Source: a virus
Taxonomy: Duplodnaviria > Caudoviricetes
IMG/VR virus record: IMGVR_UViG_3300005838_000623
Span: 1-64,000 of that record
Reading direction: 5' to 3' (one strand)
Length of the DNA: 64,000 bases
Shown here: positions 43,640 through 56,784 of the stretch, piece by piece
Numbering within the stretch: position 1 is the stretch's first letter
Layout of the letters: each line of letters starts with the position of its first letter
Program-made: the position numbers and the translations under genes
The notes under the pieces: generated by a model
The model's database searches: none
Told to the model about the DNA's origin: nothing
Seen by the model: only the letters and a program-made list of their open reading frames with translations

Positions 43640-43819
43640 ATGTCGACAATACATGAGCAAATTTTAGATCAAGTAGACAGTTATTTGAAAGAATCAGCAA
43701 AATTCGAAGATAAAGGTGTAAAGGCGGCCGCCGCCCGTGCTCGTAAAGCACTAGGTGAAATAGGCAAACTATCTAAAGCACGTAGAGCAGAAATTCAAGA
43801 TAAGAAAAACTCTATGTAA
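43640..43819 (+). CDS. Histone H1-like Hc1-family small basic protein (59 aa; not in ORF track)
   Basis: MSTIHEQILDQVDSYLKESAKFEDKGVKAAAARARKALGEIGKLSKARRAEIQDKKNSM; AAGGAG SD; TAAATA upstream. Confidence 0.75.
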   Translation: MSTIHEQILDQVDSYLKESAKFEDKGVKAAAARARKALGEIGKLSKARRAEIQDKKNSM

Positions 43820-44406
43820 TGCCTAGTAAGCAAAAAATAAAAGGCGCCACGTGGGAACGAGATGTTGCAAAACATCTAACAGAATTATATGGTGAAACAT
43901 TTATTCGAGTTCCTCATAGTGGAGCTTACATCGGCGGATCAAACAAAGTACGTAAACAATACCTACATGAGGGAGTAATAAGAACCTTTAAAGGAGATAT
44001 TATTCCAGGGCCTAGTATGCCCTATTTAAATGTAGAATGTAAAGCATATAAAGATTTCCCCTTCCATCACTTGCTTACAGGTGATGCAAAATTATTAGAT
44101 GAATGGATTAATCAAGTATTAGATTCAGCAGATGAACATGACTTCAATATGTTAATAATGAAGTTTAATCGAAAAGGCAAATACGTAGCAATAGAAGACA
44201 AACATTTACATCATAGATTTAAAAGGCACATTAATTACAAAGGATGGAATTTTAGTGAATACGACCAATTCTGGAAACTAAATTCCAAAACAGTAAGATT
44301 ACAATCAGCGATAAAAAAAAGGCAAATTAAATATAATATGAAATCAATAACACAACCCACTTTTGGCTCCCATAGGCAAGTAAAAGAAACTAACATAGCA
44401 ACCTAA
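43819..44406 (+). CDS. Holliday junction resolvase-like PD-(D/E)xK nuclease
   Basis: KGATWERDVA...RVPHSGA...GDII...VECK. Confidence 0.75.
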   Translation: MPSKQKIKGATWERDVAKHLTELYGETFIRVPHSGAYIGGSNKVRKQYLHEGVIRTFKGDIIPGPSMPYLNVECKAYKDFPFHHLLTGDAKLLDEWINQVLDSADEHDFNMLIMKFNRKGKYVAIEDKHLHHRFKRHINYKGWNFSEYDQFWKLNSKTVRLQSAIKKRQIKYNMKSITQPTFGSHRQVKETNIAT

Positions 44407-44408
44407 AC

Positions 44409-44720
44409 GCAGTTAAGAGCTGCTCGCCTCGAGCACGTAGCATAGGCACGTGAGTACAAGAATTGGCGAAGTTGCAACCCAGGCTAAGGGCGCCAAAAGA
44501 TGTGGATACAAGAAAAAGAAACCACAACTATTTTAATGTTGATACTATAGCATTAAAGTAGTCCCGCTATGACGAAAGTCAGAAGTCTGAGGTAGGGGGT
44601 ACAGGGTAACCGCCTCCGTGCTAACGCAATCCTCAATAGTATATAATGAGTTAAACGATGGAAAAAGTACTCATGCTTCTCCTCACCAGGAGAAGTGTGA
44701 ATAAAACTTCGGGAAAAAGA
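44409..44720 (+). ncRNA. Candidate large structured non-coding RNA
   Basis: ORF-free, GC-richer gap with about 10 helices, G-U pairs, a GAAA tetraloop, a 7-bp pseudoknot and three GAAAAAG motifs; late-promoter motif at 44328. Confidence 0.55.
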
Positions 44721-44789
44721 TAACAAATAAATATTACTAAACGTTCAAGGTTCGAATGTAATGAAGAACCAGTTGAACGTAGTTCAACT

Positions 44790-45497
44790 ATGCAATATAC
44801 ATACGAAACACACTTCGGAAAACAAGAAACTCGAAATGTAATAATAAATTATGTAAGTTTACGCAACGTAGATCCACGGGAAGAATATCTAGCACTTGAA
44901 AAGGGATTTGCTTTAGATATTGTTAAAGGTAAAGAAGAATGGTTCATGTCGCGTAATACGCGAATTAAATTATCAGAAACAAATTATGATAAGTTAGATT
45001 GGCAGTTGGGGTTAGCATGGCATTCAAATATAAAAGAAATGCCTAGTATGTTTCAAAACATTTTAACAAAGTATATACATCATAATAATTTCAAAAACAT
45101 TTGGACTGTTAATGAAGATCATGATCGGTACCGATATATTTTATATTATCATAAAGGTAATATAGTGGCAATAACTAAAATGCTTCATTATCATCCACCA
45201 TTTCCATTTGCTGATCATGACATATTAGAAACAAACTTTTTTATATGGAATTATCATGAACCTGAATTACATTTAGGAACTCTGACATTGGAACATGAGA
45301 TTGCTTGGGCAAAAGAATTAGGTTTAAAGTATTTGTATACTGGTCCTGGATATGAGCAAAGTAGCATATACAAATCCAAATTCGACGGTTTTCAATGGTT
45401 TAACGGAATGGAATGGAGCACCGACGTGGAAAAGTATACACTACTTTGTCAACGGGATAGTAAAATACGGAGTTTTAAAGCGTATACTGAGATTTAA
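44790..45497 (+). CDS. Aminoacyl(Arg/Leu)-tRNA-protein transferase-like (ATE1/Bpt, GNAT fold)
   Basis: C-terminal LGTLTLEHEIAWAKELGLKYLYTGPGY...YKSKF resembles the ATE_C consensus. Confidence 0.6.
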   Translation: MQYTYETHFGKQETRNVIINYVSLRNVDPREEYLALEKGFALDIVKGKEEWFMSRNTRIKLSETNYDKLDWQLGLAWHSNIKEMPSMFQNILTKYIHHNNFKNIWTVNEDHDRYRYILYYHKGNIVAITKMLHYHPPFPFADHDILETNFFIWNYHEPELHLGTLTLEHEIAWAKELGLKYLYTGPGYEQSSIYKSKFDGFQWFNGMEWSTDVEKYTLLCQRDSKIRSFKAYTEI

Positions 45498-56067: not shown

Positions 56068-56160
56068 CTTGGATAAATACAAATGCGTAGTAATACACTA
56101 CGTTTATGGGGAACACCATCCCCGTAATCCATAGAATGGATAACCTTAAGGAGAAACAAA

Positions 56161-56784
56161 ATGGGAAGACCAATTAACAAAAAGCACATTGGTGACGGTG
56201 TAGGTAAAATTCAAGTCACCGCAGTACGATTCGCAGCCGGCGCAGAAGTAGCTGCCGCAACAGAAGCACATATTATTCAGCAAAAAGGAACTAAGAAGTT
56301 TAAAGTAACTGATGGTTCCAAAACTGAAGTAGTTACCCTAGTAAATAAGAGCCCAGGCTCATTAGCAGCTAGTGAAATGTGTATTAACGTTACAGACTCA
56401 CTTGGTGTATCAAAGCAGATCACAAAATTACGCAACAGAACCTTCCAAGTTGAAGGCACATCTAACGCAAAGTGGTCACGTTCTGCTACTGGTACTTCAT
56501 CAGCAGTTGAAAAAGTTATCACAGGCGCAACAGCCGCCAACCCTGTAGTAATTACAAGTAATGGTCATGGACTTGCAAATGGTACAAAAGTTTCTATCCG
56601 TGGTGTAGTAGGTATGGTAGAACTTAATGTTGAAACAGCATTTACTGTAGCATCCACAGCTACTAATACGTTTGCATTATCAGGTATTAACGGTTCTGCT
56701 TATACAGCATACACTTCGGGTGGTGTTGCAACAGCTGCCGCTGTAACTTCTGGTTCAATCGTAGTTGACGCACAAGTATCATAA
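56161..56784 (+). CDS. Virion protein with E1-FCCH-like beta domain
   Basis: ITGATAANPVVITSNGHGLANG...GMVELN...NTFAL...YTSGG. Confidence 0.6.
   Translation: MGRPINKKHIGDGVGKIQVTAVRFAAGAEVAAATEAHIIQQKGTKKFKVTDGSKTEVVTLVNKSPGSLAASEMCINVTDSLGVSKQITKLRNRTFQVEGTSNAKWSRSATGTSSAVEKVITGATAANPVVITSNGHGLANGTKVSIRGVVGMVELNVETAFTVASTATNTFALSGINGSAYTAYTSGGVATAAAVTSGSIVVDAQVS

What the first reader, a model, noticed from the sequence alone, without database searches (positions are those of the whole stretch)
44328..44720. Candidate undescribed large structured ncRNA between the resolvase and the transferase gene
Seen: an ORF-free gap of about 380 nt in a gene-dense genome, almost fully tiled by helices: GCAGTT/AGCTGC (44409-44423), CACGT/ACGTG (44434-44452), TTGGCG/CGCCAA (44463-44496), TGTGG/CCACA (44501-44526), a 15-bp stem with three G-U pairs (44527-44562), TGAC-GAAA-GTCA GNRA hairpin (44570-44581), a multibranch TGAGG/CCTCA domain (44588-44635) enclosing GGGGGT/GCCTCC, ATGAGT/ACTCAT (44646-44674) and GCTTCTCCT/AGGAGAAGT (44675-44696). 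The loop ATACTAT (44542-44548) is perfectly complementary to ATAGTAT (44636-44642), a pseudoknot. GAAAAAG occurs three times (44512, 44661, 44713), twice inside loops. A late-promoter TAAATA lies at 44328-44333, inside the unstructured-looking resolvase tail. G-U pairs and the GNRA loop favour RNA on the + strand. Inference: a late-expressed ornate RNA (ribozyme, scaffold, protein sponge or nuclease partner); a structured replication origin is the alternative.
Basis: partly seen in the sequence, partly recalled or inferred. Interest (0 to 1): 0.85.

Follow-up and report, generated by a model that had tools for sequence, protein, structure and literature searches.

The report
New large structured phage RNA family
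The gene-free gap holds a real, roughly 390-base folded RNA gene with a pseudoknot, one member of a large family in big aquatic phages that matches no catalogued RNA family and carries two short identical sequences that always change together, so it probably binds two copies of one unknown partner.

Summary
Window 44407-44789 is a 383-nt ORF-free gap, GC-rich (42-45% against about 30%), that folds better than shuffles (z -4.6). It is a + strand structured RNA of about 383 nt (44406-44788).

Homologues were found in at least 120 IMG/VR viral contigs: 113 distinct full-length sequences, median length 397 nt.

On an alignment of 91 sequences made without structure, 70 pairs in 17 helices are 94% paired. 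Shuffled controls give 80% and slid controls about 42%. Compensatory changes occur in 52 of the 70 pairs. G-U pairs outnumber A-C pairs 623 to 81, which fixes the strand.

TTGGCG/CGCCAA is not, and the late promoter is unsupported.

Rfam 15 has no match for 14 members. No cultured phage carries the RNA, and I found no description in print.

Two single-stranded 7-mers (44660 and 44712, GGAAAAA) are identical to each other in 89 of 91 members, although 13 variants exist. No complement was found.

The function is unknown. My best guess is a trans-acting scaffold that displays twin binding sites. A nuclease gene, GIY-YIG or PDDEXK but never both, lies directly upstream in 86 of 110 loci.

The parts
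44406..44788 (+). Whole RNA gene, approximate ends (from just before P1 to the last hairpin P13). Family median length between the equivalent points is 397 nt.
   Evidence: Family alignment A2 and length count. The ends are inferred from where conservation and helices start and stop, not from mapped transcript ends.
44409..44423 (+). P1 hairpin GCAGUU/AGCUGC
   Evidence: GCAG/CUGC becomes GCGG/CCGC in L005, L006 and L009. Across the family, 55 of 70 distinct sequences form a 7-bp hairpin here, with 36 distinct 5' strands; mean stem 6.7 against 4.3 in shuffles.
44425..44468 (+). P2 (CGCC 44425-28 with GGCG 44465-68), enclosing P3 (CACGU 44434-38 with ACGUG 44448-52)
   Evidence: P2 is CUCC/GGAG in L005, L006 and L009, read from alignment A1. 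In the main group, P2 columns 103-106 with 171-174 are 97.3% paired and 4 of 4 pairs show compensatory change; P3 columns 119-121 with 130-132 show it in 3 of 3. The placement of the window's own P2 is by my reading of homology.
44478..44490 (+). P4 hairpin CCC/GGG with loop AGGCUAA, the counterpart of the main group's UUGC-UAACUUAAG-GCAA
   Evidence: Main-group P4 columns 212-216 with 224-228: 4 of 5 pairs show compensatory change. The window mapping is by eye.
44501..44526 (+). P5 hairpin UGUGG/CCACA. Its loop carries GAAAAAG (44512-18), the counterpart of the nearly invariant main-group loop GAAAAAGAUAC.
   Evidence: GUGG/CCAC becomes CGAGG/CCUCG in L005, L006 and L009. Main-group helices 5 and 6 are 95.0% and 93.1% paired.
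44527..44562 (+). P6 long hairpin. Its loop AUACUAU (44542-48) is the 5' strand of the pseudoknot.
   Evidence: Helix 1 of the model alignment A4: 12 pairs, 11 with compensatory change, 97.6% paired.
44570..44581 (+). P6.1 hairpin UGAC-GAAA-GUCA, an insertion specific to this subgroup
   Evidence: Absent from the main group. L005, L006 and L009 have GGC-GUGAUA-GCC at the same place.
44588..44635 (+). Three-way junction. P7 is UGAGG/CCUCA. P8 is GGGGG..CCUCC with a UAC bulge (the near-invariant core, 44592-44617). P9 is UGC/GCA (44620-22 with 44627-29).
   Evidence: R1 match at 44527-44652, 71 bits, E 6e-15. P7 has compensatory change in 3 of 4 pairs, P8 in 2 of 5, P9 in 4 of 5. Conservation of the 26-nt core is partly by construction, because members were collected by that motif.
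44636..44642 (+). Pseudoknot 3' strand AUAGUAU, which pairs with 44542-48
   Evidence: 64 of 75 distinct loop and tail combinations have at least 6 contiguous complementary bases. Mean 7.5 against 5.1 with shuffled loops; 47 distinct loop strands.
44646..44674 (+). P10 AUGAGU/ACUCAU. Its loop holds twin motif X1.
   Evidence: Kept as GGU/ACC in L005 and GGA/UCC in L009. Weak in the main group: mean 4.4 bp against 3.65 in shuffles.
44660..44667 (+). Twin motif X1 (GGAAAAAG)
   Evidence: The 7-mer equals X2 in 89 of 91 family members. Six of its 8 bases are unpaired in the window's MFE.
44675..44696 (+). P11 hairpin GCUUCUCCU/AGGAGAAGU
   Evidence: Helix 14 of A2: 8 pairs, 98.6% paired, 4 with compensatory change.
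44712..44719 (+). Twin motif X2 (GGAAAAAG)
   Evidence: As for X1. Seven of its 8 bases are unpaired in the window's MFE.
44749..44770 (+). P12 hairpin GGUUC/GAACC. It has an inner GA-rich motif, GAAU..AUGAA here and UGAGC..GCGAAA in the main group.
   Evidence: Helices 15 and 16 of A2: 7 of 7 pairs show compensatory change, including inner GC/CG to AU/UA.
44771..44789 (+). P13 terminal hairpin AGUUGAAC-GUA-GUUCAACU. It ends one base before the transferase ATG.
   Evidence: Helix 17 of A2: 7 of 7 pairs show compensatory change. Only 27 of 82 members have at least 4 T in the next 8 bases, so it is not a clear intrinsic terminator.
43819..44406 (+). Upstream gene: PDDEXK_15 'resolvase-like' nuclease. 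Its last 30 or so residues are unconserved.
   Evidence: Pfam PF24608, E 5.9e-28. PHROG 244, RusA-like resolvase. Relatives match residues 1-160/166 only.
44790..45497 (+). Downstream gene: distant relative of aminoacyl-tRNA-protein transferases (ATE/Bpt-like)
   Evidence: Pfam ATE_C, 22.6 bits, below its cut-off of 25. NCBIfam arginyltransferase, 22.7 bits, far below its cut-off. No PDB sequence match.

Best explanation
The gap encodes a free-standing, compactly folded non-coding RNA of about 383 nt on the + strand. It has about 14 helices, a three-way-junction core and an H-type pseudoknot. It belongs to a large RNA family, absent from Rfam 15, carried by large T4-like aquatic phages at the end of their gp47/gp46-nuclease recombination module.

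Shown: the RNA fold, the strand, the family, the gene context and the concerted twin motifs.

Inferred: the RNA acts in trans as a folded scaffold. It holds out two identical single-stranded purine-rich 7-mers, X1 in the P10 loop and X2 after P11, 52 nt apart in the window. These would bind two copies of one partner: either a short complementary RNA or DNA, or a symmetric dimer of a protein. Whenever the partner's specificity differs between phage lineages, both sites must change together.

My odds: real structured RNA family about 0.95; absent from curated families about 0.9; the twin-site, trans-acting scaffold or sponge mechanism about 0.35.
For: Fold and chance: z -4.6 for the + strand, and GC 42-45% against about 30%.

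Conservation: the whole gap is kept where the flanking nuclease is only 71-73% identical in protein. Its 3' half is kept in 32 of 37 loci anchored on transferases that are only 35-39% identical.

This gave 180 loci, 113 distinct full-length sequences, and 26 clusters at about 60% identity.

Covariation on the MAFFT alignment A2 (91 sequences):
- 70 pairs are 94.1% paired, against 79.8% shuffled and 40-45% slid.
- 52 of 70 pairs show compensatory change.
- 821 double-change cells against 204 in shuffles, 0 of 500 shuffles as high.

Covariation on the model-fitted alignment A4 (92 distinct sequences): 95.2% paired against 79.7%, and 20 of 29 pairs compensatory.

Pseudoknot: 64 of 75 distinct combinations have at least 6 contiguous pairs.

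Strand: 623 G-U/U-G cells against 81 A-C/C-A cells, out of 6216.

Not coding: lengths run 377-472 nt and are spread over all three residues mod 3. The median longest stop-free run is 63 aa.

Not a leader: in the main group the next gene (DUF6614) is on the opposite strand in 55 of 55 cases. The transferase is on either strand, 37 minus and 18 plus.

Twin motifs:
- The two 7-mers are identical in 89 of 91 sequences, with 13 distinct perfectly matched variants.
- Each motif shows 32 state changes on a tree built without those columns.
- Independent pairs go the same way 12 of 12 times (p 0.0005) at position 1, and 6 of 6 (p 0.03) at position 5.
- Members that are 94% identical differ at the same base in both copies.

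Presence in RNA libraries: contigs from 4 marine metatranscriptome runs of 4 studies cover 44000-44874 in pieces. Of 11 pieces, 1 is at least 99% alike, 8 are 95-99%, 1 is 90-95% and 1 is under 90%.
Against: No transcript ends, no strand and no abundance are known. The metatranscriptome data are contigs, which may include DNA. One contig runs from the nuclease gene into the RNA (44000-44447), so co-transcription cannot be excluded.

No partner for the twin motifs was found. There is no consistent complement inside the RNA. In 797 kb of flanking loci there are 47 complement hits, about what chance gives. The 8-mer is not enriched in the window, 4 against 1.96 expected.

Identity of the two motifs could have other causes; see the rival explanations.

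Members were collected through an exact 26-nt degenerate core motif, so core invariance is partly by construction and true diversity is under-sampled. The structure tested on A2 was derived from that same alignment, which favours it over the slid controls.

No member is known from a cultured phage, so nothing is tested experimentally.
Confidence: 0.55

Rival explanations
1. A ribozyme or self-processing RNA. The conserved junction core would be catalytic. The two identical motifs would mark two equivalent processing sites for cleavage, ligation or circularisation, releasing the 52-60-nt segment that carries P11.
For: The RNA is large, with many near-invariant unpaired bases in junctions (J6/7 UUCCGUUGAUAUGUGAAGCU, the UAC bulge) and a pseudoknot. 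Two identical sites would fit one active site acting twice. That large, highly conserved RNAs are often ribozymes is recalled general knowledge.
Against: There is no match to any ribozyme family in Rfam 15, even at E up to 10. No internal guide complementary to the motifs was found. The metatranscriptome contigs show no joint that skips the segment; read-laying table 5 lists none, though contigs show presence and not absence.
Confidence: 0.15
2. An RNA partner of the neighbouring nuclease, acting as guide, activator, inhibitor or antitoxin-like regulator. Alternatively, it is simply the conserved DNA target beside which free-standing homing-type nucleases settle.
For: A nuclease gene lies directly upstream on the same strand in 86 of 110 loci with enough flank: a SegE-like GIY-YIG in 74 and PDDEXK_15 in 12. 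The two are never both present within 4.5 kb (0 of 133 loci), which points to one functional slot filled by unrelated nucleases. The GIY-YIG protein weakly matches homing and group I intron endonuclease families. That homing endonuclease genes settle next to very conserved targets, such as T4 segB in the tRNA cluster, is recalled.
Against: The whole region keeps its gene order (gp47, gp46, nuclease, RNA, DUF6614, transferase, DUF6875, baseplate), so adjacency may be inherited gene order only. In 24 of 110 loci another gene lies directly upstream, for example a radical-SAM gene. The GIY-YIG protein is only 142 aa, with no DNA-binding domain. Jumbo phages that have the PDDEXK nuclease (PA5oct, Phosso, SCTP-2) give no R1 match. 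Both nucleases are DNA enzymes by family.
Confidence: 0.12
3. The two identical motifs pair with each other as a parallel-stranded homoduplex (A-A, G-G and U-U homo-pairs), or each docks identically into a symmetric part of the fold. Identity would then be an intramolecular structural constraint and no outside partner would be needed.
For: Identity, not complementarity, is what covaries at five of the seven motif positions (mutual information 0.44-1.07; same letter in 99-100% of sequences). No complement exists. The two strands run in the same direction and are joined by a 50-60-nt hairpin-containing linker. That parallel homo-pairing requires identical sequences is recalled chemistry.
Against: Parallel homoduplexes are not an established motif in natural folded RNAs (recalled). 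Nothing here tests it.
Confidence: 0.08
4. A cis-regulatory leader or attenuator of the transferase gene that starts one base after the last hairpin.
For: In the window and its close relatives, P13 abuts the transferase ATG at 44790.
Against: In the main group a gene on the opposite strand (DUF6614) follows the RNA. The transferase lies on the other strand from the RNA in 37 of 55 loci. The element is about 400 nt long and equally conserved where no gene follows.
Confidence: 0.04
5. A DNA-level element: a replication origin, a recombination hotspot or a packaging site.
For: It lies at the border of the recombination module. The - strand also folds better than its shuffles, z -3.8.
Against: G-U pairs outnumber A-C 623 to 81. 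Several G-U pairs are invariant, for example 91 of 91 at columns 351-369. Such pairs cannot form in the complementary strand or matter in duplex DNA. The pseudoknot covaries.
Confidence: 0.04

Closest known systems
GOLLD and ROOL RNAs (large ornate RNAs often carried by phages and prophages)
   Same: A large, intricately folded, phage-borne non-coding RNA with pseudoknots, strong covariation and no known function. It is an independent gene rather than a leader.
   Different: No sequence or structure match in Rfam 15. It is smaller: about 400 nt, against about 580 and 800 nt (sizes recalled). It sits in T4-like aquatic phages. It has the concerted twin 7-mers. Homo-oligomer cages are reported for GOLLD and ROOL (PMC12286853, abstract start in the search listing only); nothing here tests oligomerisation.
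HEARO / omega RNAs and other nuclease-associated guide RNAs
   Same: A structured RNA of a few hundred nt that sits next to a nuclease gene on the same strand.
   Different: The nucleases here are GIY-YIG or PDDEXK, not IscB or TnpB. The RNA follows the gene with its own conserved upstream motif. No Rfam match. No variable guide segment at an end; the variable part is two internal identical 7-mers.
Sponge or decoy RNAs with repeated binding sites (CsrB/RsmZ for CsrA; phage anti-sRNAs)
   Same: Several copies of one short single-stranded motif are displayed on a folded RNA. This is the model I favour for the twin motifs (recalled analogy).
   Different: Only two copies. The motif is not GGA-centred in all members (for example ACGAAAU and ACAUGAA). 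The scaffold is far more elaborate and more conserved than known sponges.
freshwater-2 RNA (RF02980), present in the same window at 56086-56163
   Same: An environmental-phage RNA motif found by comparative genomics, in the same genome.
   Different: An unrelated 84-nt cis-regulatory motif directly upstream of an ORF. It has no similarity to the gap RNA.

Membership tests
Any Rfam 15 family (including GOLLD, ROOL, OLE, raiA, HEARO, group I/II introns, RNase P, tmRNA, 6S, riboswitches) | Covariance-model score at or above the family's gathering threshold | tested here: not met
   Window at gathering threshold: the only hit is freshwater-2 at 56086. Gap at E up to 10: two chance-level hits of 18 and 14 bits. 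L038 at E up to 10: two hits of 16 and 13 bits. Twelve further members at gathering threshold: 0 hits.
tRNA / tmRNA | Cloverleaf, or tRNA-like domain with tag frame, detectable by ARAGORN | tested here: not met
   0 genes in the 64-kb window.
Cis-acting 5' leader (riboswitch or attenuator) of the downstream gene | Constant position upstream of, and on the same strand as, one gene family | tested here: not met
   The next gene is on the opposite strand in 55 of 55 loci with DUF6614. The transferase is minus in 37 loci and plus in 18.
Intrinsic terminator (for the last hairpin P13) | GC-rich hairpin followed by a U-run | tested here: inconclusive
   27 of 82 members have at least 4 T in the 8 bases after P13. 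The scan finds no + strand terminator in the window.
Protein-coding gene or small ORF | Conserved open frame; indels in multiples of three | tested here: not met
   The median longest stop-free run is 63 aa in any frame. Lengths mod 3 are 18, 35 and 38. Substitutions are compensatory in stems.
Candidate structured RNAs 'DNAVirus_X' of Fremin et al. 2023 (IMG/VR) | Overlap with one of the 8495 listed models | not testable with these tools
   The paper's passages say its models are 29-151 nt long, mean 67. Fragments of this RNA may be among them, but not the 400-nt RNA as a whole.

The most novel reading that the evidence does not exclude
The RNA is a new kind of programmable phage ribonucleoprotein component. 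Its two identical 7-nt strands would be twin recognition elements that co-evolve with a nucleic-acid target, either host or rival-phage RNA or DNA. The rigid pseudoknotted core would recruit or control the adjacent GIY-YIG or PDDEXK nuclease, or another conserved neighbour. That would make it an RNA-directed nuclease or decoy system unrelated to CRISPR, OMEGA or bridge RNAs.
Probability: 0.12. Interest if true: 0.95.

Novelty: categorically new. Interest (0 to 1): 0.82.

Why it matters
Large, highly conserved, pseudoknotted RNAs are rare, and they have repeatedly turned out to be ribozymes, guides or assemblies. This one has more than 100 distinct members in uncultured large aquatic phages and no catalogued relative. 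It also has a feature I have not seen described: two short single-stranded motifs that are identical within each molecule but differ between molecules. That feature gives a direct experimental handle, because one motif or both can be mutated and the partner that reads them can be sought. If the partner is a nucleic acid, the family would be a new programmable recognition system. If there is none, the identity covariation would point to an unusual RNA structural motif. Even on the plainest reading, it adds a well-supported family of about 400 nt for Rfam and for structure determination. One caveat applies to the rating 'categorically new'. It refers to the RNA family and its twin-motif signature. 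Whether the mechanism is new cannot be known until a function is found.

Tried and rejected
Searches and tests that led nowhere:

- Rfam at loose thresholds gave nothing.
- ARAGORN gave nothing.
- blastn of the window RNA and of a main-group member against 50,697 phage records gave no match.
- Model R1 gave no match in the complete records of PA5oct, Phosso and SCTP-2; the first look found no candidates in them, so sensitivity is limited. It also gave no match in the records behind L065 (transferase present, 34% complete) and L015.
- A phage-wide TAGGCA promoter is rejected: 33 matches against 33.6 expected in the window. AGGCA does lie 11-13 nt before the first conserved helix in 45 of 91 members, so a local promoter element remains possible but untested.
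- The sigma-70 and terminator scan gave nothing useful on the + strand.
- A complement of the twin motif inside the RNA was not found. The best recurring sites needed a mismatch and occurred in at most 44 of 91 sequences.
- A complement in the flanking 797 kb occurred at chance level.
- A second pseudoknot between X1 and the AUCU before X2 fits the main group (UCRGAU with AUCU-R-GA) and L005, but not members such as L076 or L097 (read). I left it open.
- RNAalifold's long-range GUCA/UGAC helix is rejected. The GUC covaries instead with the GAC before P1 (P0, columns 74-76 with 185-187).
- The palindromes CUUAAG in the P4 loop and AUCUAGAU at X2, considered as dimerisation sites, are not conserved across members (read).
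- The twin motifs are not start codons or small ORFs. There is no conserved frame, and the window's motif has no AUG.
- Metatranscriptomes gave contigs only. The depths are flat per contig and give no ends, strand or level. Parts without cover mean nothing.
- A script to compute unpaired probabilities for the twin motifs got no answer and was not repeated. I read the window's MFE instead.

Papers, and what I saw of each:
- PMC10690425: passages only.
- 10.64898/2026.10.21.760802: passages only.
- All others: search listings and abstract starts only.
- Supplements are closed. The model lists of PMC10690425 may contain fragments of this RNA.

The following are recalled and come from no call: T4 EndoII and SegB, Slx1, HIV DIS, CsrB, ToxI, T4 gene 60, the sizes of GOLLD and ROOL, and parallel homoduplex chemistry.
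Full report
WHAT IS AT THE COORDINATES

The window is part of a 92.7-kb virus record, rated 24% complete, and holds a single copy of the element. A PDDEXK_15 'resolvase-like' nuclease ORF ends at 44406. An ORF distantly related to aminoacyl-tRNA-protein transferases starts at 44790. The 383 nt between them hold only ORFs of 32 to 57 aa. GC is 42-45% in the gap and about 30% beside it. The + strand folds to -111.9 kcal/mol, against -85.1 +/- 5.8 for shuffles (z -4.6). The - strand gives z -3.8.

IT IS CONSERVED, AND IT IS A LARGE FAMILY

Fourteen IMG/VR loci found through the nuclease protein include relatives whose nuclease is 71-73% identical. These still keep the whole gap (nhmmer E about 1e-27). 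Thirty-seven loci found through the transferase include many whose protein is only 35-39% identical. The 3' half of the RNA was still detected in 32 of the 37. At least three of the five misses have little or no upstream flank: L044, L051 and L066.

It hit only 3 contigs among one genome each of 185,579 prokaryote species: two contigs of a Haliscomenobacter MAG and one of a Flavobacterium MAG. Together this gave 180 loci and 113 distinct full-length sequences. These form 91 clusters at about 85% identity, 26 at about 60% and 16 at about 40%. From the first to the last conserved helix the RNA is 377-472 nt long, median 397.

One caveat: members were collected by an exact core motif. The invariance of that core is therefore partly by construction, and more distant members were missed.

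STRUCTURE

I aligned 91 representatives with MAFFT, using no structural information (A2). I then derived helices from mutual information and RNAalifold.

Results on A2:
- 70 pairs in 17 helices are 94.1% paired.
- Shuffled partners give 79.8%, and partners slid by 1-3 columns give 40-45%.
- 52 of the 70 pairs show changes on both sides.
- 821 cells show double changes, against 204 in shuffles (0 of 500 shuffles as high).

Because the structure was derived from this same alignment, the slid control is generous to it. The shuffle control ignores relatedness.

I built a covariance model of the core domain (R1, 123 positions). It found one match in each of 96 loci searched. The window scored 71 bits at 44527-44652. 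On the alignment fitted to that model, 95.2% of cells pair (79.7% shuffled, 45-50% slid), and 20 of 29 pairs show compensatory change.

P1 is too variable for column-wise counting, so I tested it sequence by sequence. Fifty-five of 70 distinct sequences form a 7-bp hairpin there, with 36 different 5' strands.

The pseudoknot joins the P6 loop to the stretch just after P7. It has at least 6 contiguous pairs in 64 of 75 distinct combinations (mean 7.5, against 5.1 with shuffled loops) and 47 different loop strands. For example, AUCGAUUU pairs with GAAUCGAU in L052, and AUUUACAAU pairs with AUUGUAAAU in L063.

THE WINDOW'S RNA HELIX BY HELIX

- P1: 44409-23.
- P2: CGCC 44425-28 with GGCG 44465-68.
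- P3: 44434-52.
- P4: CCC/GGG, 44478-90.
- P5: 44501-26.
- P6: 44527-62.
- GNRA hairpin specific to this subgroup: 44570-81.
- Three-way junction P7/P8/P9: 44588-44635.
- Pseudoknot: 44542-48 with 44636-42.
- P10: 44646-74.
- P11: 44675-96.
- P12: 44749-70, with a GA-rich internal motif.
- P13: 44771-89.

In L009 the 3' strand has no counterpart. The GGCG instead pairs upstream, and that pairing covaries to CUCC/GGAG in L005, L006 and L009.

STRAND, AND RNA VERSUS DNA

Across the 70 pairs there are 623 G-U or U-G cells and 81 A-C or C-A cells. Some G-U pairs are invariant, for example 91 of 91 at columns 351-369. On the other strand these would be mismatches. The selected structure therefore belongs to a + strand RNA, not to duplex DNA and not to a - strand transcript.

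The region is not coding. No frame is conserved, and lengths are spread over all residues mod 3.

Contigs from four marine metatranscriptome runs, from four studies, cover 44000-44874 in pieces. Of the 11 pieces laid, 9 are at least 95% alike. This shows presence in RNA libraries only. It gives no ends, no strand and no level. One contig bridges from the nuclease gene into the RNA.

CONTEXT

I compared 133 de-duplicated loci. They are related to one another, so they are not independent.

- Of 110 loci with at least 900 nt of upstream flank, 86 have a nuclease gene directly before the RNA on the same strand. It is a 142-aa SegE-like GIY-YIG protein in 74 and PDDEXK_15 in 12.
- The two nucleases never co-occur within 4.5 kb (0 of 133).
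- In the other 24 loci another gene lies between or instead, for example a radical-SAM gene.
- Downstream, a DUF6614 gene follows on the opposite strand in 55 of 99 loci.
- The transferase is within 2.6 kb in 55 of 82 loci, on either strand (37 minus, 18 plus).
- Further out lie DUF6875, a T4-type baseplate gene and gp46/gp47-type recombination nuclease genes.

The RNA is therefore not a leader of the transferase, although in the window its last hairpin touches that gene's ATG. It sits at the end of the recombination module.

The nearest cultured relatives, judged by gp46 and the nuclease protein, are the jumbo phages PA5oct, Phosso, SCTP-2 and Atu_ph07, at 43-48% protein identity. None of the three whose records I searched has the RNA. 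Neither blastn search of 50,697 phage records found it.

THE UNEXPECTED FEATURE: TWIN MOTIFS

Two purine-rich 7-mers lie in the 3' domain. X1 is in the P10 loop (window GGAAAAA at 44660). X2 follows P11 (44712). Each is preceded by CUC or UCU.

- They are identical to each other in 89 of 91 members.
- The family uses at least 13 different perfectly matched versions, among them AGAUGAU, GGAUAAU, AGAUAAU, GGAUGAU, ACGAAAU, AGAUGAA, AGACGAA, ACAUGAA, AGAUCAA and GGAAAAA.
- Five of the seven motif positions show identity-type covariation, with mutual information of 0.44-1.07.
- On a tree built without those columns, each motif changes state 32 times, in step with the other.
- In independent pairs on well-supported branches, the second motif follows the first 12 of 12 times at position 1 (p 0.0005) and 6 of 6 times at position 5 (p 0.03).
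- Members that are 94% identical differ by the same U-to-C change in both motifs.

Recombination of a block that contains both motifs could inflate the count of changes on the tree. It cannot explain 13 matched variants.

No complement exists at a consistent place in the RNA or in 797 kb of flanking sequence. In the window's MFE both motifs are mostly unpaired. The third is the P5 loop, which in the main group is the nearly invariant GAAAAAGAUAC.

WHAT IT IS AND HOW IT MOST LIKELY WORKS

Shown: a conserved, pseudoknotted, + strand RNA family of about 400 nt, specific to phages, with two concertedly evolving single-stranded motifs.

Inferred (my odds about 0.35): a trans-acting scaffold that presents two equivalent sites to two copies of one partner. 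The partner would be a short complementary nucleic acid, or a symmetric protein dimer, whose specificity differs between lineages.

Rivals:
- A ribozyme that acts at two equivalent sites (0.15).
- A partner or target of the adjacent nuclease (0.12).
- Intramolecular homo-pairing of the two motifs (0.08).
- A cis leader (0.04).
- A DNA element (0.04).

COMPARISON WITH WHAT IS KNOWN, AND NOVELTY

No Rfam 15 family matches the window or 13 other members. There is no tRNA or tmRNA.

In kind it resembles GOLLD and ROOL, which are large ornate phage-borne RNAs of unknown function. In context it resembles nuclease-associated RNAs such as HEARO. It shares no detectable sequence or structure with either.

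Four full-text searches and two papers read in passages turned up no description. The IMG/VR survey of Fremin et al. 2023 reports models of 29-151 nt, so pieces of this RNA may be in its supplementary lists. I could not open those.

I rate the family and its twin-motif signature as new. The mechanism is unknown.

Noticed in passing
window 56086-56163 (+): A freshwater-2 RNA motif (RF02980) scores 63.9 bits against a gathering score of 49.9. It ends right at the start of a 207-aa ORF (56161-56784, +).
   Followed up: partly
window 44790-45497 (+); L038 2501-3178: A phage protein with weak similarity, below the curated cut-offs, to the C-terminal domain of arginyl/leucyl-tRNA-protein transferases (ATE_C 22.6 bits; NCBIfam arginyltransferase 22.7 bits). 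It has no PHROG and no PDB sequence match. It is conserved near the RNA in 55 of 82 loci but on either strand. An aminoacyl-tRNA-dependent transferase in large phages would be unusual.
   Followed up: partly
loci L067-L184, directly upstream of the RNA (e.g. L114 1705-2133); window 43819-44406: The gene slot before the RNA is filled either by a 142-aa GIY-YIG (SegE-like) nuclease or by a PDDEXK_15 nuclease, and never by both within 4.5 kb (0 of 133 loci). This may be a non-orthologous replacement of a resolvase-like function, or a turnover of homing-type nucleases.
   Followed up: partly
window 43640-43819 (+): A 59-aa protein matches the chlamydial histone-like Hc1 family (PF07432, E 1.4e-11). 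It lies between the gp46-like gene and the nuclease, and is conserved in L009.
   Followed up: no
L185/L192 and L186/L195 (two contigs, 148 kb and 183 kb, of one Haliscomenobacter MAG); L187/L193 (Flavobacterium MAG): These are the only prokaryote-genome hits of the RNA core. Two different copies sit on two large contigs of one MAG. They are probably phage contigs binned with a Bacteroidota genome, which may hint at the host range.
   Followed up: no
A2 upstream columns; window 44373-44378: AGGCA, often as TAGGCA(A/G)C, lies 11-13 nt before the first conserved helix in 45 of 91 members. In the L076/L103 subgroup a TATAAT-like hexamer occupies about the same place. This may be the promoter of the RNA. 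In the window it lies inside the unconserved tail of the nuclease ORF, further upstream than usual.
   Followed up: partly
RNA 3' domain, e.g. window 44646-44667 and 44698-44719: The similarity between the two twin-motif regions extends upstream (AUGAC..N..CUC/UCU + X, and in the window UGAGUUAAAC..GGAAAAAG against UGAAUAAAAC..GGAAAAAG). This suggests an old internal duplication of a unit of about 22 nt.
   Followed up: no
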